Positions 32,843-40,811 of a DNA stretch of 64,000 bases are shown here, piece by piece (the first letter of the stretch is position 1; the number at the start of each line of letters is the position of its first letter). A model generated the notes under the pieces. That model was not told the origin of the DNA and did no database searches. It worked only from the letters and a program-made list of their open reading frames with translations. Origin of the DNA: Escherichia phage SME50. The position numbers and the translations under genes were made by a program. The stretch lies in the sequence record MT887289.1; one strand, given 5' to 3'.

Positions 32843-33735
32843 GAGAGAAAACTATGAAAACATCTATCCGTGTTACAGTTCATTCACCAACTAAAGGGAC
32901 TCATGAAGAAGAGTTTAACATCATCCAATTCCCTTCTGGTGAGATTGGTGGACACTTTTCACCAGAGTTTGTTGACTTCACTGCTTATGCAGCATCATCT
33001 ATCAACAATGTGATTATGATTGTAAAAGGTTATGATAAAGATACATTGTTTGCTGTGGCACTTGCTAAAGAGGCGGTGGACAACTTAGTACCTCATAAGT
33101 TTGCTATGAAGACTGTCATCTTTTACTATTTGCCAAATGCACGTTACGACCGTCACATGTTTAAAGGTGATGCAGCAGCTTTGAAAGTGTTTGCACAACA
33201 GGTTAATGCAATGGGTTTCGATGCAGTCTGTGCAGTTGACTCTCACAGTTATGTACCAGATAACCTGTTTAACTGCTTCCAGAGTATCCCCCAAAAGGAG
33301 ATTGCAGTCCACTATGCGAATGACCCACTGGTTGATTACTTAGTAGCCCCAGATGCAGGTGCTGCTAAGAAGATTGCAGAGACCGCTAAAGAGGTGGATA
33401 AACCATACATCACAATGTCTAAAGTGCGTAACCTTAAGACTGGTGAGATTACCGGTATGCGAATCCTCGATGATGTTGATTTGACAGATAAAACTGTCAT
33501 GATTCTGGACGACATCTGTGATGGAGGTCGTACCTTCATAGAGGCAGCTAAACATCTCCGTGAAGCAGGTGCAAAACGTGTGGAACTCTATGTAACACAT
33601 GGTATCTTCTCTAAAGATGTTGAAAACCTTCTTGACAACGGTATTGACCACATCTACACTACAAACTCTTTAGGGGAAGCTAAAGACCGTGGATTAACAC
33701 ATTATAGTCAAGTTACTGTAGCAAATTTGGATTAG
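32839..33735 (+). CDS. ribose-phosphate pyrophosphokinase (Prs)-fold enzyme; candidate ADP-ribose pyrophosphate synthetase
   Basis: 298 aa; PRPP-binding-type motif VMILDDICDGGRT; N-terminal half diverged from housekeeping Prs; adjacent to Nampt-like gene. Confidence 0.65.
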   Translation: MREKTMKTSIRVTVHSPTKGTHEEEFNIIQFPSGEIGGHFSPEFVDFTAYAASSINNVIMIVKGYDKDTLFAVALAKEAVDNLVPHKFAMKTVIFYYLPNARYDRHMFKGDAAALKVFAQQVNAMGFDAVCAVDSHSYVPDNLFNCFQSIPQKEIAVHYANDPLVDYLVAPDAGAAKKIAETAKEVDKPYITMSKVRNLKTGEITGMRILDDVDLTDKTVMILDDICDGGRTFIEAAKHLREAGAKRVELYVTHGIFSKDVENLLDNGIDHIYTTNSLGEAKDRGLTHYSQVTVANLD

Positions 33736-33743
33736 GTATTAAA

Positions 33744-34235
33744 ATGGATAAGGGTTACTTCGAAAAATACCTAAGATACGAACCAGAGACAGGTTTACTA
33801 ATTTGGAAAGTAACCCTTTGCAATACCGCTATTGCTGGCAATGTTGCTGGCACAAGGTCTAAGAAGGGTTATATCCAAGTTCAGATAAATAAGAAGAGGT
33901 ACTATGCACATAATATTGCATGGATTATGTCTGGAGGTGAGATACCAAGTGGATATGAGATAGACCACATAGACCTTGATAAAACTAATAATAAGTTGGA
34001 GAACTTAAGACTTAGCACAAAGTCACAAAATCAGAGGAATAGAGGCATACACAAGAATAATAAAACTGGTGTGAAGGGTGTAAGTTTTTGTAAACAAACA
34101 GGTCTTTACAAAGCAAGAGTCATGCTTTACCATAAAGAATACTTTTGTGGAAGATTTAAAACGGTAGAAGAAGCAAAAGAAGCTGTAATTAAAAAGCGAA
34201 TAGAACTTCATGGTGAGTTTGCAAGACATAACTAA
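33744..34235 (+). CDS. HNH homing endonuclease with AP2-like DNA-binding domain
   Basis: 163 aa; EIDHIDLDKTNNKLENLRLSTKSQN (HNH) plus GVKGVSF...YKARV... (AP2-like); free-standing between Prs-like and Nampt-like genes. Confidence 0.7.
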   Translation: MDKGYFEKYLRYEPETGLLIWKVTLCNTAIAGNVAGTRSKKGYIQVQINKKRYYAHNIAWIMSGGEIPSGYEIDHIDLDKTNNKLENLRLSTKSQNQRNRGIHKNNKTGVKGVSFCKQTGLYKARVMLYHKEYFCGRFKTVEEAKEAVIKKRIELHGEFARHN

Positions 34236-34249
34236 GAGAGAGATAAAAT

Positions 34250-36031
34250 ATGAGTAATTCACTTTACGCAGTACCAGCAGGTCTTAATGCAGATGCTTAC
34301 AAGGCATCACATATATATCAGTATCCAGATGCTACACAGTATCTTATGTTGAACCTGACACCACGTAGTGACAAATGGTTTAACAGCCCCTTAGCAATTG
34401 ACGGTGTAGTGGCTTTTGGTATTCAACGTTTTGTTAAAGATTACCTGATAGACCACTGGAACGCCACCTTCTTCGAACGTGACAAAAAAGAAGCAATTGA
34501 TGAAATCTTAGAAGTCATGAACGGCGTTCTGGGTAAAGATGCTATTGGTCGAGAACATTGGGAAGCACTCCACGACTTAGGTTATCTACCAGTTGAAGTC
34601 TACGCTGTAGAAGAAGGTACAGTTGTCCCTATGCGTGTGCCAATGATTGTCTTCCAGAACACTGTTTCAGGTTTCCATTGGGTAGCGGGGTATCTGGAAG
34701 ATGCTTTCTCTGCTGAGATTTGGAAGGCTTGTACCATTGCAACTATTGCATTGCACTACAAACGTATCTGTAAGAAGTGGTCTGACCTTACTTGTGACAA
34801 CGACTTGCATTTGCCTTATCAGTGCCATGATTTTGCTATGCGTGGTATGTCCGGCTTTACTGATGACGCATTTAACGCTGTAGGCCACTTAACCAGCTTT
34901 AAAGGGACTGATAGCTTCCCTGCTGTATATACAGCTAAACGCATCTACGGTCAGTCCTACCCAATCTCTGATATTGGTAGCTCTGTACCAGCCACTGAAC
35001 ACTCTGTAATGTGTGCAAACATTGCTTGGGAAGGTGGTAATGAGTTGATTGAAGAAGAAAGACGCTTTAAAGGTGAGTTACAAACCTTCCGTCGATTCTT
35101 AACAGAGACTTACCCAACTGGTATTGCAAGTGTTGTTTCAGATACTTATAATTTCTGGAGAACTGTATCAGTCATATTGCCAGAACTCCGTAAAGAGATT
35201 ATGGAACGTGATGGAAAACTGGTAATTCGTCCTGACTCTGGAGACCCTGTACATATTGTCACAGGCTATAAAGCAATCCACTTAGAGTGTGCTAAAAAGG
35301 CTTATTACGAACACCTAAGCAAGCTGGAAGCCAGCGACACAATGTTGAATGCTGTTCTGAACATGAAGCTTGAAAACATCAACTATGGTATTGCTGGGTG
35401 GCTACTGTCAGAAGGCTACGAAATGGTTGTTGACAGAGAAGACTTTGAAGTTGCTGATACAGTGCTGTTGAAAAATGCTTACATGGTTGGTTCTGCAAAC
35501 GTTGTAACACGTCCTGTAGCAGAGATTGATGGTGCTATTAAGACCCTGTATAACATCTTTGGAGGGACTATCAACTCTAAAGGTTTTAAGGTACTGGATG
35601 AGCACATTGGCCTTATTTATGGTGACTCTATCACGTTGGAACGTGCAAACGAAATCCTGAAACGTTTGTATGAAATGGGTTTTGCAAGCTCTAACGTAGT
35701 GTTTGGTGTAGGTTCTTATACTTACCAGTACATGACTCGTGACACCTTTGCATTTGCTGTCAAAGCAACTCTTGCAAGTATTGGTGGTAAAGAGATTATG
35801 CTTGCAAAAGACCCTAAAACAGATAGCGGTGTTAAGAAGTCTGCTTTTGGTGGTGTAGCACCCATGTGGGATGGTGATAAGCTGAAAGCTGTAGATGGCT
35901 ATGGATTCCAGAGCTTTGCAGATGTGCTTGAACATCCAGCTTGTGCTTTACGTTTAGTCTTTAGTGACTCTGAGCAGTTCGGTTACACAACTCTTGGTGA
36001 TATTCGAAATAATATTGACAAGCAACTTTAA
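34250..36031 (+). CDS. nicotinamide phosphoribosyltransferase (Nampt)-family enzyme; candidate nicotinamide ADPR transferase
   Basis: 593 aa; Nampt-like core including SVVSDTYNFW and GDSIT motifs. Confidence 0.7.
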   Translation: MSNSLYAVPAGLNADAYKASHIYQYPDATQYLMLNLTPRSDKWFNSPLAIDGVVAFGIQRFVKDYLIDHWNATFFERDKKEAIDEILEVMNGVLGKDAIGREHWEALHDLGYLPVEVYAVEEGTVVPMRVPMIVFQNTVSGFHWVAGYLEDAFSAEIWKACTIATIALHYKRICKKWSDLTCDNDLHLPYQCHDFAMRGMSGFTDDAFNAVGHLTSFKGTDSFPAVYTAKRIYGQSYPISDIGSSVPATEHSVMCANIAWEGGNELIEEERRFKGELQTFRRFLTETYPTGIASVVSDTYNFWRTVSVILPELRKEIMERDGKLVIRPDSGDPVHIVTGYKAIHLECAKKAYYEHLSKLEASDTMLNAVLNMKLENINYGIAGWLLSEGYEMVVDREDFEVADTVLLKNAYMVGSANVVTRPVAEIDGAIKTLYNIFGGTINSKGFKVLDEHIGLIYGDSITLERANEILKRLYEMGFASSNVVFGVGSYTYQYMTRDTFAFAVKATLASIGGKEIMLAKDPKTDSGVKKSAFGGVAPMWDGDKLKAVDGYGFQSFADVLEHPACALRLVFSDSEQFGYTTLGDIRNNIDKQL

Positions 36032-36044
36032 AAGTATATGATAA

Positions 36045-36070
36045 GAGGCTCCTACGGGAGCCTTTTTAAT
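36045..36070 (+). terminator. intrinsic terminator
   Basis: aggctcctacgggagcct plus ttttaattt. Confidence 0.6.
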
Positions 36071-36084
36071 TTCTGGAGAAGATT

Positions 36085-36420
36085 ATGAAAATCAAAGAAA
36101 TGAATATCAACATTGTCTTAGAAGAACGTTGGGAGAACATCAAGAAGCCTGAAAATGGTCATAAGTTCCTCAACAAAATCTTAGTGGCAGCTAAAGAAGA
36201 ACTGACTGGCAAGGTTGCAGCAGCAATCACAATAAAGGTGTGTGTAAAAGGTCTTCCAGACAATCACCAATTTGCACTTGACGAGTTTAAAGAAAGCTTC
36301 TACAATCCAAACAAACAGATGCTTGAAAGTAACTTTGCAGTATCTACAAGTATCGTTCATGACAGAAGCTTTATCCTTTACAAGAATATGAGAGGTGAGT
36401 CATGCAAGCATATTGGATAG
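36085..36420 (+). CDS. hypothetical protein
   Basis: 111 aa. Confidence 0.45.
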   Translation: MKIKEMNINIVLEERWENIKKPENGHKFLNKILVAAKEELTGKVAAAITIKVCVKGLPDNHQFALDEFKESFYNPNKQMLESNFAVSTSIVHDRSFILYKNMRGESCKHIG

Positions 36421-36578
36421 AAATTTTACTGTCACTTGGTAGTGTAGCAGTGTTCGTTTACCTTCTTTGCAAGTACTATGCAGAGCACAAAAAATGTGAC
36501 TTCTGTGACGGAGAAGGTTATACAAGAGCAGGTTGCTGCCCTATGTGTGGCGGTTCTGGTAAAATGTTTAATAAGTAA
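36402..36578 (+). CDS. small membrane protein with C-terminal zinc ribbon (below ORF-track cutoff)
   Basis: 58 aa; MQAYWIEILLSLGSVAVFVYLLC TM then CDFCDGEG...CPMCGGSG. Confidence 0.3.
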   Translation: MQAYWIEILLSLGSVAVFVYLLCKYYAEHKKCDFCDGEGYTRAGCCPMCGGSGKMFNK

Positions 36579-36606: not shown

Positions 36607-38973
36607 ATGCGCATGGTAAATGACCACGCAGAAGTGATTAAGAGTTCAACTTCTTTAGAGACGTCTCAAGCACAGATTACAATGACACCTGAAATGTTCA
36701 GCCTTTTGAGTTCTGGTGTATATACCTTTAAAGAAAGGGCAGTTATTCGTGAACTGTCATGTAACGCAGTAGATGCTCAGAAAGAAGCTGGAAAAGAGAA
36801 CATCCCGTTCCATGTGCATTTACCTACTCGTTTTGAGCCTTACTTTGAAGTTCGTGATTTTGGAACTGGATTGACTCATGATAAAGTTATGAGTTTGTAT
36901 CTAAATTACGGGGCTTCTACGAAGAATGACTCTAATGACTACATTGGTGCAATGGGTATCGGCTCAAAATCCCCATTTGCAATTGCTCAGTCATTCACAG
37001 TATCTAGCTATGTTGATGGTGTTGTCAATAAGTACTCTGTTTACCTTGAGAATGGTATCCCTCAAGTAACTAAGCTGACCACTAACCCAACAAAAGAACC
37101 TAATGGTTTAGCTGTACGTGTAGCAGTTGCTGACCACCGTATTTCAAAGTTCTTTGAAGAAGCTGGTCATGTGTACTCATACTTTGCTGTAAAACCAGAA
37201 AGTAATATCGAGTATGATGATGTATTAGCAGATATGAATGTCATTGCCCGTGAAGAAGGTGTTTATGATGCCATGATTCACAAACAAAGCTGGCGTTCTA
37301 GTGGTAACAGGACAGAGTTTAATGTGGTGATGGGTAATATCGCCTATCCAGTGAACATGGAAGCACTACTTGGTGATGATTTCTTCAAAGTCTTGCCAGA
37401 GTTTTTCCGTAGAAGCGTAGACCTTGTAAACATCTACATGCCTATTGGTTCAGTTGCTATTGCAGCTTCTCGTGAAGCATTGCAGATGAACGACACGACA
37501 AAAAATGTTATCATCGAGGCTACTAAAAAGATAACTGAAGCAATTACAAAGGATGTTATCAAGAAAGTTAATAGTCAACCTACACTCATGGATGCTGCAC
37601 AGGCTTATGCTGAGTTACGCTTGAACTCACGAGAGATGTTTAATGCTGTGTGTCCAAAGCTAGAGTGGGGAGGCGTTAAGCTTGATTCTCTGGAAGAAGA
37701 ATTACTAAACATTCGTCGTGGAATTATCTACGCAGAAGACGGCTCAGTTATCTATGAACGTGATGGTAAAGGTAATATTAAGGTTGATAGGAACGGAAAC
37801 AATATCCCTAAAGTAGATTATCTTTATAATCCAGTTGCTTATGTTAAGTTCAACTCTTTAGAAAGTAAGATTCGTGCAACAGCACTTTCCTACACTCAAG
37901 AGGCAAGTATGTTCAATATCTTTGGTGCAATGCGCAAAAGCCAAATTGAACAGTTTTTGTTTGTTATCAATGACCGTCGCAATAAAAACGGTACTGAGAA
38001 AACTGTAGGACGCAACCAGATTCTGCGTGGTGCATGTCGAGACTATGCCAGTGAGTCAAGTCTGTTTCACAGATACAATGGCATTGTCTTTGTATTCTCT
38101 ACTGAGAAAGAGCTAGACGACTTAATCAATCTGCACAAACTTGATAAAAGCTTGTTAAAGATTGTGAAGATGTCTGACAAGGAACATCATTATCAGCGTA
38201 AAGAAGCTGTAAGAGGTGTTGTAAAACTCTGGAAAGCTGTTCCAGCAGAAGGTGTAGCTTCATACAAAGAGGTGTCAGAAGACTTAGATACGATTGAAGA
38301 ACCTCAGCTTTACATTAAGGCAGTCGGTGACACAGTTGATGGTGAATGTTTTTGCTCATCTCCAGAAGATGTAGCTAAGTCAGTTGCCAATGTCATTGAA
38401 AAGACAGTCTATGTTTTCCGAAAAGCAAATTGGAAAAAGATACCAGAAGACTGGATTGAAGTAGATGAGAAGCTCTTGAACGACAGCTTAACTGATATTC
38501 ACTGGATTAATCATAACAGGTATATGACACGTATCTATATGAATGGTGTCCTAGACCTTACAAGCAGTTGGATTATTGCCAGAAACTTTACGTTCAATAA
38601 CAGGAAGATTTCTCGCGGCTATTGCTATTCACGAGACACAAACAAAACTATCTTCTTAGAAGGTAATGAAGATGCTGTTGAGGCAATGTTCGGTAAAATC
38701 CAATACGTTGCTGCACCATTTGCATACACTTACACTATTAGTGTGTTGCAAGATTTGAAAAGGTGTCTTGATAATGATACAAAGCTTTACAAGAAAATTA
38801 AGAAAGCTGGTGACCGTATGGTCATTAAGGTGACAAACTATCTTTTAAAAAGAAAACAAGAAAACTTCTTGCTTTCTCATTTAGATTGGAATAAAGTGTC
38901 ACCCATCGAAGTGAGTAAGTTCTTAGGCTTTGATGTGAAGTGTGTTCCAGAAGGGACTACAATTTACGATTAA
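36607..38973 (+). CDS. rIIA: rIIA-like protein with N-terminal GHKL ATPase fold
   Basis: 788 aa; GHKL N-box ELSCNAVDA, G1 VRDFGTGL, G2 IGAMGIGSKS; followed by rIIB-like gene. Confidence 0.55.
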   Translation: MRMVNDHAEVIKSSTSLETSQAQITMTPEMFSLLSSGVYTFKERAVIRELSCNAVDAQKEAGKENIPFHVHLPTRFEPYFEVRDFGTGLTHDKVMSLYLNYGASTKNDSNDYIGAMGIGSKSPFAIAQSFTVSSYVDGVVNKYSVYLENGIPQVTKLTTNPTKEPNGLAVRVAVADHRISKFFEEAGHVYSYFAVKPESNIEYDDVLADMNVIAREEGVYDAMIHKQSWRSSGNRTEFNVVMGNIAYPVNMEALLGDDFFKVLPEFFRRSVDLVNIYMPIGSVAIAASREALQMNDTTKNVIIEATKKITEAITKDVIKKVNSQPTLMDAAQAYAELRLNSREMFNAVCPKLEWGGVKLDSLEEELLNIRRGIIYAEDGSVIYERDGKGNIKVDRNGNNIPKVDYLYNPVAYVKFNSLESKIRATALSYTQEASMFNIFGAMRKSQIEQFLFVINDRRNKNGTEKTVGRNQILRGACRDYASESSLFHRYNGIVFVFSTEKELDDLINLHKLDKSLLKIVKMSDKEHHYQRKEAVRGVVKLWKAVPAEGVASYKEVSEDLDTIEEPQLYIKAVGDTVDGECFCSSPEDVAKSVANVIEKTVYVFRKANWKKIPEDWIEVDEKLLNDSLTDIHWINHNRYMTRIYMNGVLDLTSSWIIARNFTFNNRKISRGYCYSRDTNKTIFLEGNEDAVEAMFGKIQYVAAPFAYTYTISVLQDLKRCLDNDTKLYKKIKKAGDRMVIKVTNYLLKRKQENFLLSHLDWNKVSPIEVSKFLGFDVKCVPEGTTIYD

Positions 38974-39052
38974 AGTGTTTGACAAGGGGCTTTGAAGCCC
39001 CTTAGAATATCCTTACAAAATGATTTATTAACTGACAAGAGAGAGTAATAAG

Positions 39053-40162
39053 ATGACTACTAAAACTAAAGCACAGATTGACGCAGAAATTTACAAACTG
39101 GTTAAAGAAGGTAAGCTGACTAAAACAGCTATTGCACAGAAGTTCAATACTTCAACCCGTTCAGTTGGTCGTGCTGTAGAGCGTCATGAAGCAACCTTAA
39201 AAGGTAAGAAAAAGGTAGCTTCGACACCAGCTAAGAAGACTTTGAAGCAAGTTGCTAAGACCTTTAAAAAGAAAGCTGACAAACCAGTTGAAAAGGTTGT
39301 TAAAGAGTCTGTACAGAAAGCTCCAGTAAATAAACTGCATGAAGCTATGCAGAAAGATGACAAGATTGAGTACATGATTACTGGTGACTCTGTAATTATG
39401 ACTTACGGTTCAGAATCTGAAATTGTTGAGTCTACTCATCCGAACTATCAAGAGATTGTAGTCCATGTTGTGAAAGGTGAGTTCAAGAAAGCCTTTGAAC
39501 TGATGAATATTCGTAAGTCTATCGAAAACTTCACTCAGGGTGCTATCACAATCAAAGGTGACAAGTTATTCTACGGTGCTGTTGAGATGCGTTCTACTCT
39601 GGTTGACCGTATCCTTCACATGATGAAGACTGGTGATAAAGGTTTTGAACGCCTTGTAATGTTCTTCGAAAAACTGATGGAAAACCCATCTAAAGATTCT
39701 GTAGAACAACTTTGGGGATTCGTATCTCACCTTGATGTTGAAATTGATGAAGAAGGCTACATCATTGGTTGGAAGAAAGTCTCTACTCGTGAAGGCAAGC
39801 TGGTTGACTCTCACACCTACAAAGTACCTAATGATTTGGGTAACATTGTAGAAATGCCACGTTGGATGGTTGATAACAACCGTAACGTAACTTGCTCTCA
39901 GGGTCTTCATGTTGGTGCTTGGGATTATGTTCGTTGCTTCTCAGGCGATACAATCCTGAAGGTTCGTGTCCATCCACGAGATGTTGTATCTGTTCCGACT
40001 GATTACAACGATATGAAGATGCGTTCATCCCGTTATGAAGTTGCAGCAATCGTTGATAATCAACGTAAAGTGCTGAAAGCATGGGATGGTAAGACTGAAG
40101 CTTTGCATGTCATCGTTGGCACTGCTGGTGAACTCATCTCTCAACGTAAACGTGAAATCTAA
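39053..40162 (+). CDS. rIIB: rIIB-like protein
   Basis: 369 aa; N-terminal HTH-like region; conserved blocks LVDRIL...LMENPS and CSQGLHVG...VHPRDVVSVPTDYNDMKMR recalled from T4 rIIB. Confidence 0.55.
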   Translation: MTTKTKAQIDAEIYKLVKEGKLTKTAIAQKFNTSTRSVGRAVERHEATLKGKKKVASTPAKKTLKQVAKTFKKKADKPVEKVVKESVQKAPVNKLHEAMQKDDKIEYMITGDSVIMTYGSESEIVESTHPNYQEIVVHVVKGEFKKAFELMNIRKSIENFTQGAITIKGDKLFYGAVEMRSTLVDRILHMMKTGDKGFERLVMFFEKLMENPSKDSVEQLWGFVSHLDVEIDEEGYIIGWKKVSTREGKLVDSHTYKVPNDLGNIVEMPRWMVDNNRNVTCSQGLHVGAWDYVRCFSGDTILKVRVHPRDVVSVPTDYNDMKMRSSRYEVAAIVDNQRKVLKAWDGKTEALHVIVGTAGELISQRKREI

Positions 40163-40177
40163 TAAGTAATTTCTTAA

Positions 40178-40206
40178 AAGGCTGCTTCGGCGGCCTTTTT
40201 TATTTG
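40178..40206 (+). terminator. intrinsic terminator
   Basis: aaggctgcttcggcggcctt plus ttttatttg. Confidence 0.55.
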
Positions 40207-40262: not shown

Positions 40263-40811
40263 ATGAAGAAGTTGATTCTAGGTTTGTGCTTAATGTTTAC
40301 AGCACACTTATCTTATGCAGTTGACTGCCCAGAGCTATCAATTAGCCAAAAAGTAAACATGTTAAAAGCTTACCAGTATGGTGAGAATAATATGGGTAAA
40401 GGTTGGGGTATCACTCTAGCTGCTATAGCCTTACAAGAGTCAGAGTTAGGTCTGAAGGTAGAGAATAAAAAGACCCATGACTATGGTATCTTCCAGAATC
40501 ACTTGAAGACTGTTGTAAAGCGTAACAAAATCAGTCCTAATGTGGCTAAAAAGAAACTCTTAAAAGACTTTGACTATGCTGCAAAGGAAACACACAAAGA
40601 GCTTGAGTTTTGGACTAAGGTACATGGTCAACCAAAGTCAAAGAAGACTTTACAAAAAGTTTTAGCGTCATATAATGCTGGGTATTCGTACAAAATCCCT
40701 AAAGCTAAGAAATACTCTCAAGATGTTTACAACAATATGAAAGTCATCGCTCAATGTGAATTTGCAACAAACATTTCTAAGGTAAACCATGAAAAAATTA
40801 AGAAAGTCTGA
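40263..40811 (+). CDS. lytic transglycosylase (SLT domain) with signal peptide
   Basis: 182 aa; signal peptide MKKLILGLCLMFTAHLSYA; SLT-like motifs ALQESELG, YGIFQN, ASYNAGYS. Confidence 0.55.
   Translation: MKKLILGLCLMFTAHLSYAVDCPELSISQKVNMLKAYQYGENNMGKGWGITLAAIALQESELGLKVENKKTHDYGIFQNHLKTVVKRNKISPNVAKKKLLKDFDYAAKETHKELEFWTKVHGQPKSKKTLQKVLASYNAGYSYKIPKAKKYSQDVYNNMKVIAQCEFATNISKVNHEKIKKV

What the first reader, a model, noticed from the sequence alone, without database searches (positions are those of the whole stretch)
36607..40162. rIIA/rIIB-like pair with a GHKL ATPase N-domain
The 788-aa protein has clear GHKL ATPase motifs (ELSCNAVDA, DFGTGL, GAMGIGSKS). The following 369-aa protein carries blocks I recall from T4 rIIB (RIL...ENPS; CSQGLHVG; HPRDVVSVPTDYNDMKMR). 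rII proteins are classic but still mechanistically obscure exclusion-escape factors (Rex of lambda). Finding them beside a family A DNA polymerase, a T7-type primase-helicase and the NAD+ module marks this as a mosaic genome and a second candidate counter-defence locus.
Basis: partly seen in the sequence, partly recalled or inferred. Interest (0 to 1): 0.45.

Follow-up and report, generated by a model that had tools for sequence, protein, structure and literature searches.

The report
Felix O1-type phage rIIA/rIIB genes
These two genes are the ordinary, already-annotated rIIA and rIIB counter-defence genes of a Felix O1-like coliphage, and near-identical copies in a sister phage have already been shown by knockout to be needed against a bacterial defence system.

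Summary
ORFs 36607-38973 (788 aa) and 39053-40162 (369 aa) exist and carry every quoted motif. Profile searches place them in rIIA (phrog_612, E 3.5e-189, full length) and rIIB (phrog_609, E 4.3e-89). Direct BLASTP against T4 gives rIIA E 3e-37 (N-terminal ~300 aa only) and rIIB E 2e-60 (near full length).

The window is a typical Felixounavirus. The locus is 92-98% identical in over 200 public genomes, most of them labelled rIIA/rIIB, so the 'mosaic genome' remark is not supported.

The counter-defence reading is right but already tested. Bas63 genes 84 and 85 (98% and 83% identical) are each required on a QatABCD host, and SUSP1 rII (63% and 80%) counters lambda RexAB.

The extra details here are modest. 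rIIA appears to have a two-domain GHL-type ATPase module with an invariant S-R-E loop. rIIB has a sigma-region-4/LuxR-like HTH, a disordered Lys-rich linker and a core without a solved relative. The verdict is: already known, low interest.

The parts
36607..38973 (+). rIIA gene (788 aa)
   Evidence: phrog_612 'RIIA lysis inhibitor', E 3.5e-189, residues 1-770 against profile 1-716 of 725. 32% identical to T4 rIIA over aa 23-317, E 3e-37. 98.2% identical to Bas63 gp84 and 63% to SUSP1 rIIA over the full length. Annotated rIIA in many Felixounavirus records.
36679..37206 (+). rIIA residues ~25-200: GHKL (Bergerat-fold) ATP-binding domain, Hsp90-like at sequence level
   Evidence: E49, N53, D56, D84, G86, G114, G117 and G119 are invariant in 13 sequences from 8 phage lineages and in 111 homologs. 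The family profile hits HtpG, TRAP1, Grp94 and Hsp82 N-domains at E 2e-12. hhalign against E. coli HtpG gives probability 96.6%. NCBIfam HSP90 family E 3e-11 and sacsin ATP-binding domain 4.8e-7, both below the curated cut-offs. PF13589 is precomputed on homologs.
37207..37596 (+). rIIA residues ~201-330: second domain of the ATPase module (transducer / Hsp90-middle-like), containing the invariant S288-R289-E290 loop followed by a long helix (296-322)
37597..38970 (+). rIIA residues ~331-788: C-terminal alpha/beta region, poorly conserved across phage families
38979..39008 (+). sigma-70-like promoter match in the rIIA-rIIB gap (TTGACA, 18 nt, TAGAAT), with a G+C-rich hairpin in the spacer
   Evidence: 11 of 12 consensus matches; sequence shown. 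This is a consensus match only and function was not tested.
39053..40162 (+). rIIB gene (369 aa)
   Evidence: phrog_609 'RIIB lysis inhibitor', E 4.3e-89. 35% identical to T4 rIIB over aa 11-339, E 2e-60. 100% identical to the annotated rIIB of phage vB_EcoM_Shy. 83.4% identical to Bas63 gp85 and 80% to SUSP1 rIIB. All listed homologs carry precomputed PF26926.
39068..39202 (+). rIIB residues 6-50: three-helix HTH domain
39209..39325 (+). rIIB residues 53-91: disordered lysine-rich linker
   Evidence: pLDDT is below 50 for residues 53-91. Residues 45-100 hold 16 K+R against 5 D+E. The length varies among relatives.
39332..40150 (+). rIIB residues 94-366: conserved alpha/beta plus beta-rich core with no solved structural relative
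40176..40199 (+). intrinsic-terminator-like hairpin plus T-run that ends the rII unit
   Evidence: 10-bp stem with 5 G-C pairs and a TTTTTTATTT tail (sequence).
36015..36066 (+). promoter-like site (TTGACA, 16 nt, TATGAT) and terminator-like hairpin at the NAMPT 3' end; upstream boundary of the unit that holds two small ORFs and rIIA
   Evidence: Consensus matches only.
36085..36578 (+). two small conserved ORFs between that boundary and rIIA: a 111-aa ORF (phrog_4262) and a 58-aa ORF with an N-terminal TM helix and CxxC...CCxxC (phrog_3931). Context only; a link to rII is unproven.
   Evidence: The same arrangement is found in Bas63 (bas63_0082/0083, 'putative membrane protein') and in SUSP1.

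Best explanation
This is the rIIA-rIIB locus of a Felixounavirus (Felix O1-like myovirus of E. coli and Salmonella). It is a two-gene accessory module that is dispensable on naive hosts but needed for growth on hosts carrying certain abortive-infection or defence systems: lambda RexAB, QatABCD, and probably others.

Shown here:
- rIIA carries an intact GHKL ATP-binding site that is closest in sequence to Hsp90. This site appears to sit in a two-domain GHL-type module, the architecture of Hsp90, MORC, SMCHD1, MutL and Topo VI-B.
- That module includes an invariant S-R289-E290 loop.
- A fast-diverging ~450-residue C-terminal region follows it.
- rIIB has an N-terminal sigma-region-4/LuxR-like HTH, a disordered Lys-rich linker, and a conserved core with no solved relative.
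- Neither protein has a transmembrane segment.
- In the phage collection the two genes are found in almost the same number of records, with matching distributions by organism.

Inferred mechanism:
- rIIA acts as an ATP-driven dimerising clamp or remodeller, with R289 playing the gamma-phosphate-contacting role of Hsp90 R380 or MutL/GyrB Lys.
- It works with rIIB, which tethers the complex to nucleic acid, or to a nucleoprotein or membrane-proximal replication structure, through its HTH and basic linker.
- Together they hide or resolve the infection-specific intermediate that sensors such as RexA or QatA detect, so the effectors (membrane depolarisation, nuclease) are never triggered.
- Acting on a shared trigger rather than on one defence protein would explain how the same module can counter unrelated systems, and why rIIB itself can become a trigger for a third system (CARD/gasdermin).

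The confidence below is for identity and biological role. The molecular mechanism on its own I would put at about 0.35.
For: Identity:
- PHROG rIIA and rIIB profiles and BLASTP to T4 rIIA and rIIB.
- Over 200 Felixounavirus records at 92-98% nucleotide identity, mostly annotated rIIA/rIIB, with the same synteny in RPN213, SUSP1 and Bas63.

Role:
- Deleting Bas63 g84 or g85 lowers plating 1e4-1e5-fold on a qatABCD host, and complementation restores it. The window proteins are 98.2% and 83.4% identical to them.
- Knockdown of SUSP1 rIIA or rIIB lowers EOP on lambda RexAB. Those proteins are 63% and 80% identical.
- T4 rIIA and rIIB are conditionally essential with RexAB, and Bas37 rIIA/B are needed in clinical isolates.

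Architecture:
- Invariant GHKL motifs plus R289 and E290.
- Hsp90-family profile hits.
- rIIB model with pLDDT 85.2, with the HTH supported.
- No TM segments.

Co-occurrence: rIIA matches 2925 phage records and rIIB 2910, with near-identical counts by organism.

rIIB as a trigger, and toxic on its own.
Against: - No experiment exists on this exact phage.
- rIIB here is only 83% identical to the tested Bas63 protein, and its 3' third is a different allele, so its specificity could differ.
- The trigger-masking, nucleic-acid-centred mechanism is inference from domain content.
- The classical description, carried in the T4 and Bas63 annotations, is 'membrane integrity protector', and the PhageMaP authors themselves favour a membrane-depolarisation model.
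- The equivalence of R289 to the Hsp90 catalytic Arg is not supported by sequence profiles: the HMMER stretch scores -0.1 bits, and hhalign stops at residue 197. I could not inspect the model coordinates.
- ATPase activity and rIIA-rIIB binding have not been tested.
Confidence: 0.9

Rival explanations
1. Membrane-level protection. rIIA and rIIB are peripheral membrane proteins that act downstream of sensing. They would directly block or compensate for the ion-channel or depolarising effector (RexB, possibly QatB), preserving membrane potential and ATP. This is the classical 'membrane integrity protector' view.
For: The T4 and Bas63 annotations describe them this way. RexAB is described as acting by membrane depolarisation, and PhageMaP proposes the same logic for QatB. 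In Ounavirinae a conserved 58-aa membrane protein sits immediately upstream of rIIA and could serve as an anchor.
Against: Neither protein has a TM or strongly hydrophobic segment: the maximum 19-residue Kyte-Doolittle mean is 1.29 for rIIA and 0.69 for rIIB. The recognisable domains are a GHL-type ATPase and a DNA-binding-type HTH. A membrane role for QatB is a proposal, not a result. The small membrane ORF has no counterpart in T4, where rIIA.1 is unrelated and soluble.
Confidence: 0.3
2. rIIB is mainly a transcription factor, with rIIA as its ATP-dependent regulator, and it tunes phage or host gene expression. The defence-escape phenotypes would be indirect consequences of altered expression timing.
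For: Iyer et al. 2021 classify rIIB as a specific transcription factor. An HTH is detectable in a large part of the family and resembles sigma region 4 and LuxR domains.
Against: rII knockdowns and knockouts have no phenotype on hosts that lack the defence system. That is unexpected for a regulator of the phage programme. The most conserved part of rIIB is the C-terminal core, not the HTH. RIIB alone activates a CARD/NLR-type sensor in the absence of any phage genome.
Confidence: 0.12
3. The GHKL protein is really a diverged topoisomerase, MutL-type or Hsp90-type housekeeping enzyme that has been mislabelled rIIA.
Against: Identity to those proteins is only 11-15%. None of the 60 best profile matches to solved structures is a topoisomerase or MutL. 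The NCBIfam HSP90 score is 42.5 bits against a 455-bit cut-off. There is no Toprim, MutL C-terminal or Hsp90 M/C domain. The full-length match is to rIIA families, T4 rIIA matches directly, and an rIIB gene is adjacent.
Confidence: 0.01

Closest known systems
Bas63 (Escherichia phage JohannRWettstein, Felixounavirus) gp84 rIIA / gp85 rIIB
   Same: Same genus and same gene order: PRPP synthetase, NAMPT, small ORFs, rIIA, rIIB, a 182-aa ORF, PNK, spanins. rIIA is 98.2% identical and the same length. rIIB is 83.4% identical. Each Bas63 gene was shown by deletion and complementation to be required on a QatABCD host.
   Different: The last ~50 codons of rIIB, and residues 241-280, belong to a different allele: dS rises to ~2.6 at the 3' end against 0 at the 5' end. 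The window also has an HNH homing endonuclease between PRPP synthetase and NAMPT that Bas63 lacks at that spot.
T4 rIIA / rIIB (founding members; Benzer's rII locus)
   Same: Homologous N-terminal ATPase module of rIIA (32% identity over ~300 aa, E 3e-37; all GHKL motifs and the SREAL loop are shared). rIIB is homologous over almost its whole length (35%, E 2e-60). The two genes are adjacent and co-oriented, rIIA first.
   Different: The rIIA C-terminal ~450 residues cannot be aligned by BLASTP. rIIB here has a longer Lys-rich linker. The genomic neighbourhood is unrelated: T4 has topoisomerase gene 60 and rIIA.1 on the rIIA side and denB on the rIIB side, whereas here it is NAD+ salvage genes and a small membrane ORF.
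SUSP1 (Suspvirus, Ounavirinae) rIIA / rIIB
   Same: 63% and 80% identity over the full length, identical synteny including the HNH gene. Knockdown sensitises the phage to lambda RexAB.
   Different: Different genus. About 70-82% nucleotide identity over the collinear 44 kb.
Hsp90 / MORC / SMCHD1 / MutL / Topo VI-B (GHL-type GHKL ATPases)
   Different: 11-15% identity. No Hsp90 C-terminal dimerisation domain, no CW or coiled-coil (MORC), no Toprim, and no MutL endonuclease domain. The NCBIfam Hsp90 score is far below its cut-off. The C-terminal 450 residues are specific to rIIA.

Membership tests
rIIA family (T4 rIIA-like) | Significant sequence homology to T4 rIIA or to an rIIA family profile | tested here: met
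   phrog_612, E 3.5e-189, covering residues 1-770. BLASTP to T4 rIIA, E 3e-37 over aa 23-317.
rIIA family (T4 rIIA-like) | N-terminal GHKL ATPase domain followed by a variable C-terminal region (Iyer et al. 2021, PMC7824862) | tested here: met
   [not shown]
rIIA family (T4 rIIA-like) | Encoded next to, and upstream of, an rIIB gene on the same strand | tested here: met
   rIIB starts 79 nt downstream. The same arrangement is seen in T4, SUSP1, Bas63 and RPN213.
rIIA family (T4 rIIA-like) | Dispensable on naive hosts, required on hosts with RexAB or another abortive-infection system | not testable with these tools
   Known only through orthologs: Bas63 gp84 (98.2% identical) against QatABCD and SUSP1 rIIA (63%) against RexAB.
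rIIB family (T4 rIIB-like, PF26926) | Significant sequence homology to T4 rIIB or to an rIIB family profile | tested here: met
   phrog_609, E 4.3e-89. BLASTP to T4 rIIB, E 2e-60 over aa 11-339. The 98%-identical cluster representative P0121 carries precomputed PF26926. My local Pfam scan returned no rIIB-specific family for this protein.
rIIB family (T4 rIIB-like, PF26926) | N-terminal HTH domain | tested here: met
   [not shown]
GHKL ATPase superfamily | Bergerat-fold motifs: N box (E-x3-N-x2-D), G1 box (D-x-G-x-G), G2 box (G-x2-G-x-G) | tested here: met
   E49, N53, D56, D84, G86, G114, G117 and G119 are invariant; G88 is conserved in at least 90% of sequences.
GHKL ATPase superfamily | Bergerat alpha/beta sandwich fold | tested here: met
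   [not shown]
GHKL ATPase superfamily | ATP binding and hydrolysis | not testable with these tools
   Only inferred, from intact motifs and strong purifying selection (dN/dS 0.010 over codons 1-330).
Hsp90 family proper | Full N-M-C architecture passing the curated family threshold | tested here: not met
   NCBIfam HSP90 scores 42.5 bits against a cut-off of 455, and only residues 30-134 match. hhalign to HtpG covers only the N-domain. The middle-domain loop match is non-significant at -0.1 bits.
Type II topoisomerase ATPase / MutL | Sequence-level family membership and the partner domains (Toprim, MutL C-terminal) | tested here: not met
   No Pfam, NCBIfam or PDB sequence hit to these families appears in the results shown. 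Similarity is at fold level only, with 11-15% identity.

The most novel reading that the evidence does not exclude
Probability: 0.04. Interest if true: 0.7.

Novelty: already known. Interest (0 to 1): 0.13.

Why it matters
rII is historically central, through Benzer's fine-structure mapping and the triplet code. Its mechanism is still unresolved, so any rII locus is a legitimate object of study. This particular locus adds nothing new at the level of discovery. It is a standard core-accessory module of a heavily sequenced phage genus, it is annotated as rIIA/rIIB in public records, and it has already been tested by knockout in a sister phage.

Its practical value is for annotation and for phage-therapy host-range prediction, because Felix O1-like phages carrying it should resist RexAB- and QatABCD-type defences.

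The structural notes made here are testable refinements rather than discoveries:
- an apparently two-domain GHL-type ATPase module with an invariant S-R-E loop in rIIA;
- a sigma-4/LuxR-like HTH, a basic disordered linker and an orphan core in rIIB;
- no transmembrane segment in either protein.

They lean toward a nucleoprotein-centred mechanism rather than a membrane-embedded one.

Tried and rejected
1. The local Pfam-A scan of both proteins found nothing above the gathering thresholds (HATPase_c E 0.13; HTH_Tnp_ISL3 E 1.3e-3). I do not count this against the finding. No rIIB-specific family came up there, although precomputed PF26926 and PF13589 hits exist on close homologs.

2. Single-sequence phmmer against PDB gave nothing for rIIA and only noise for rIIB. 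A family profile was needed.

4. ART-fold lead for the rIIB core. No ART or PARP family appears among the 25 most frequent of 142 Pfam families hit by the 102 members, or in the profile search of PDB sequences. It is kept only as the low-probability novel case.

5. 'Mosaic genome': rejected. Window 1-25000 is 96% covered at ~96% identity by Felixounavirus genomes, 20042-63894 is collinear with SUSP1, and 31-46 kb is collinear with Bas63. Only the far right part is patchier, at 63-68% coverage in one place.

6. Positive selection on rIIB: rejected as the explanation for its divergence from Bas63. dN/dS stays at 0.15-0.38 while dS climbs from 0 to ~2.6 along the gene, which indicates allelic replacement by recombination.

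7. T4 rIIA.1 as a counterpart of the 58-aa membrane ORF upstream of rIIA: unrelated and not hydrophobic.

8. PADLOC gave only a GHKL-level hit of the rIIA N-domain to TmtA (E 1e-8) and nothing for rIIB.

9. The T4 genome review (PMC150520) is not held, so statements about classical membrane fractionation of the rII proteins rest on my own knowledge and on the record annotations.
Full report
OBSERVATION. Every quoted motif is present. Both ORFs have Shine-Dalgarno-like sequences upstream. Their ends coincide with the annotated rIIA and rIIB CDSs of related phages.

WHAT THE GENOME IS. Megablast of the locus finds 276 phage records. Of these, 209 cover at least 80% of the query at 92-98% identity, almost all of them Felix O1-like myoviruses of Escherichia, Salmonella, Shigella and Citrobacter (genus Felixounavirus). 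The best is Escherichia phage ZX4221 at 98.0%. Window 1-25000, which holds the DNA polymerase, primase/helicase, ligase, RNR and tail fibre genes, is 96% covered at ~96% identity by the same genus. Window 20042-63894 is collinear with the more distant Ounavirinae phage SUSP1 at 70-82%.

The local gene order is PRPP synthetase, (HNH), NAMPT, two small ORFs, rIIA, rIIB, a 182-aa ORF, polynucleotide kinase, then the spanins. It is identical in RPN213, SUSP1 and Bas63. By convention the Felix O1 genome itself was opened just upstream of its rIIA homolog (PMC3185647).

FAMILY ASSIGNMENT. PHROGs gives rIIA (phrog_612, E 3.5e-189, residues 1-770 on profile positions 1-716 of 725) and rIIB (phrog_609, E 4.3e-89). 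Against the T4 founders, rIIA is 32% identical over residues 23-317 (E 3e-37), with no alignable C-terminal half. rIIB is 35% identical over residues 11-339 of 369 (E 2e-60). tblastn finds rIIA in 2925 phage records and rIIB in 2910, with nearly identical distributions by organism. They span Straboviridae, Ackermannviridae, Schitoviridae (N4-like), Ounavirinae, and Streptomyces and Caulobacter phages, so the genes travel as a pair. The local Pfam and NCBIfam scans gave nothing above their curated thresholds. Homologs in the large protein collection do carry precomputed PF13589 (HATPase_c_3) for rIIA and PF26926 for rIIB.

THE GHKL CLAIM. An alignment of rIIA N-terminal regions from eight phage lineages has these invariant residues: E49, N53, D56 (N box); D84, G86 (G1 box); G114, G117, G119 (G2 box); and also S104, K106, G167, Y247, R289 and E290. 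The core positions remain invariant in a 111-sequence alignment, where S104 and K106 are conserved in at least 90% of sequences. The profile hits Hsp90-family N-domains in the PDB (HtpG 2.2e-12, TRAP1, Grp94, Hsp82). hhalign to E. coli HtpG gives 96.6% probability over rIIA 17-197.

Is that loop the counterpart of the Hsp90 catalytic arginine loop? HMMER's sub-threshold alignment to HtpG 'SREILQ' suggests so, but the match is not significant and hhalign does not reproduce it. I treat it as an inference. The NCBIfam Hsp90 score is also far below its cut-off (42.5 against 455 bits), so rIIA is its own family within the superfamily. This agrees with Iyer et al. [quoted passage not shown] The C-terminal ~450 residues are confidently folded, poorly conserved, and have no listed structural match.

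rIIB. The model (pLDDT 85.2) shows four parts: a three-helix bundle (6-50), a disordered Lys-rich linker (53-91; 16 K+R against 5 D+E in residues 45-100), an alpha/beta domain (94-230), and a beta-rich domain (237-366). The last two carry the invariant residues F204, G235, V273, C281, G284 and P308 and the CSQGLHVG and HPRDVVSVP blocks.

TRANSCRIPTION SIGNALS (consensus matches only). There is a terminator-like hairpin right after NAMPT (36043-36066), preceded by a promoter-like site. There is an 11-of-12 promoter match in the rIIA-rIIB gap (38979-39008). There is a strong terminator-like hairpin after rIIB (40176-40199). So rIIA may be transcribed together with two small upstream ORFs, and rIIB may also have its own promoter.

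FUNCTION: WHAT IS KNOWN.
- T4 rII mutants are excluded by lambda RexAB. Transposon and knockdown screens confirm that rIIA and rIIB are conditionally essential only when RexAB is present.
- CRISPRi-ART showed the same for divergent rII modules, including SUSP1 (PMC11879866). SUSP1's proteins are 63% and 80% identical to those in the window.
- PhageMaP made genome-wide knockouts in Bas63, a Felixounavirus. Deleting g84 or g85 lowered plating 1e4-1e5-fold on a QatABCD host, and complementation restored it (bioRxiv 10.1101/2024.10.10.617714). I located Bas63 (MZ501086) and found the window's rIIA 98.2% and rIIB 83.4% identical to those proteins.
- The neighbouring PRPP synthetase and NAMPT (Bas63 g79 and g80) were identified in the same study as counters of Sir2-HerA.
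- Conversely, T6 RIIB is toxic on its own, and it is the trigger of a Lysobacter CARD/gasdermin system.

MECHANISM: WHAT I COMMIT TO. Shown: rIIA has an intact, strongly constrained GHL-type ATPase module (dN/dS 0.010 over codons 1-330). rIIB has a DNA-binding-type HTH, a basic disordered linker and an orphan conserved core. Both proteins lack TM segments. The genes co-occur almost strictly.

Inferred: rIIA is an ATP-driven dimerising clamp or remodeller working with rIIB on a nucleoprotein, possibly membrane-proximal, infection intermediate. Their action prevents sensors such as RexA or QatA from firing. [quoted passage not shown]

This accounts for activity against unrelated systems and for rIIB being sensed by a third. 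I give this mechanism about 0.35. The classical membrane-protection model gets about 0.3, and a purely transcriptional role about 0.12. Identity and biological role I put at 0.9 or higher.

VARIATION. Within the genus, rIIA is nearly invariant: at least 95% identity in 213 records. rIIB splits into allele classes: 137 records at 95% or more, 62 at 90-95%, and 49 at 80-90%. Against Bas63 the differences concentrate in residues 241-280 and 321-369. dS rises from 0 at the 5' end to ~2.6 at the 3' end while dN/dS stays at or below 0.38. This is the signature of recombinational allele replacement, not of positive selection on point mutations.

VERDICT. The locus is an already known, already annotated and, in a 98%-identical ortholog, already experimentally tested rIIA/rIIB counter-defence module. 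Interest is low. The residual value lies in the testable structural hypotheses about a mechanism that is still open.

Noticed in passing
window 33744-34235 (+): A 163-aa HNH_3 + AP2 homing endonuclease (Pfam HNH_3 E 2.7e-19; phrog_99 E 1.4e-69) lies between the PRPP synthetase and NAMPT genes. The same insertion is present in SUSP1. It is absent at this spot from Bas63 and RPN213, where the nucleotide alignments break at about 33725-34236. It looks like a mobile element that varies within the NAD+ salvage module.
   Followed up: partly
window 36402-36578 (+), overlapping 36085-36420 (+): A 58-aa ORF has an N-terminal transmembrane helix (19-residue Kyte-Doolittle mean 2.11) and a C-terminal CxxC...CCxxC zinc-ribbon-like motif (phrog_3931). 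A 111-aa ORF of unknown function (phrog_4262) precedes it. Both lie between the NAMPT terminator and rIIA, and both are conserved in that position in Bas63 and SUSP1. Because rIIA and rIIB have no TM segment, this small membrane protein could be a partner or anchor. T4 rIIA.1 is not a homolog.
   Followed up: partly
window 39053-40162 (+), especially 39773-39892 and 40013-40162: rIIB exists as distinct alleles within Felixounavirus, while rIIA is nearly invariant. Against Bas63, dS climbs from 0 (codons 1-52) to ~2.6 (codons 321-370) with dN/dS at or below 0.38. This indicates recombinational replacement of the 3' part of the gene. It could matter, because RIIB is sensed by a CARD/gasdermin defence system.
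   Followed up: partly
window 38974-39052 (+): The rIIA-rIIB gap holds a near-consensus promoter (TTGACA, 18 nt, TAGAAT). Its spacer is a perfect G+C-rich hairpin (GGGGCTTTGAAGCCCC) with no T-run after it. The NAMPT 3' end also pairs a promoter-like site with a hairpin (36015-36066), there followed by a T-run.
   Followed up: no
window 40263-40811 (+): The 182-aa ORF just downstream of rIIB has an N-terminal signal-like hydrophobic segment and a weak SLT lytic transglycosylase match (Pfam E 1.2e-3, below the cut-off; phrog_600, unknown function). One public record labels a gene in this stretch as a lytic transglycosylase domain protein. It is conserved next to rIIB in Bas63, SUSP1 and RPN213.
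   Followed up: no
window 32853-36031 (+): The PRPP synthetase and NAMPT genes directly upstream correspond to Bas63 g79 and g80, which PhageMaP reports as counters of the NAD+-depleting Sir2-HerA defence. Two experimentally supported counter-defence modules are therefore adjacent in this genus.
   Followed up: partly
[not shown]
   Followed up: partly
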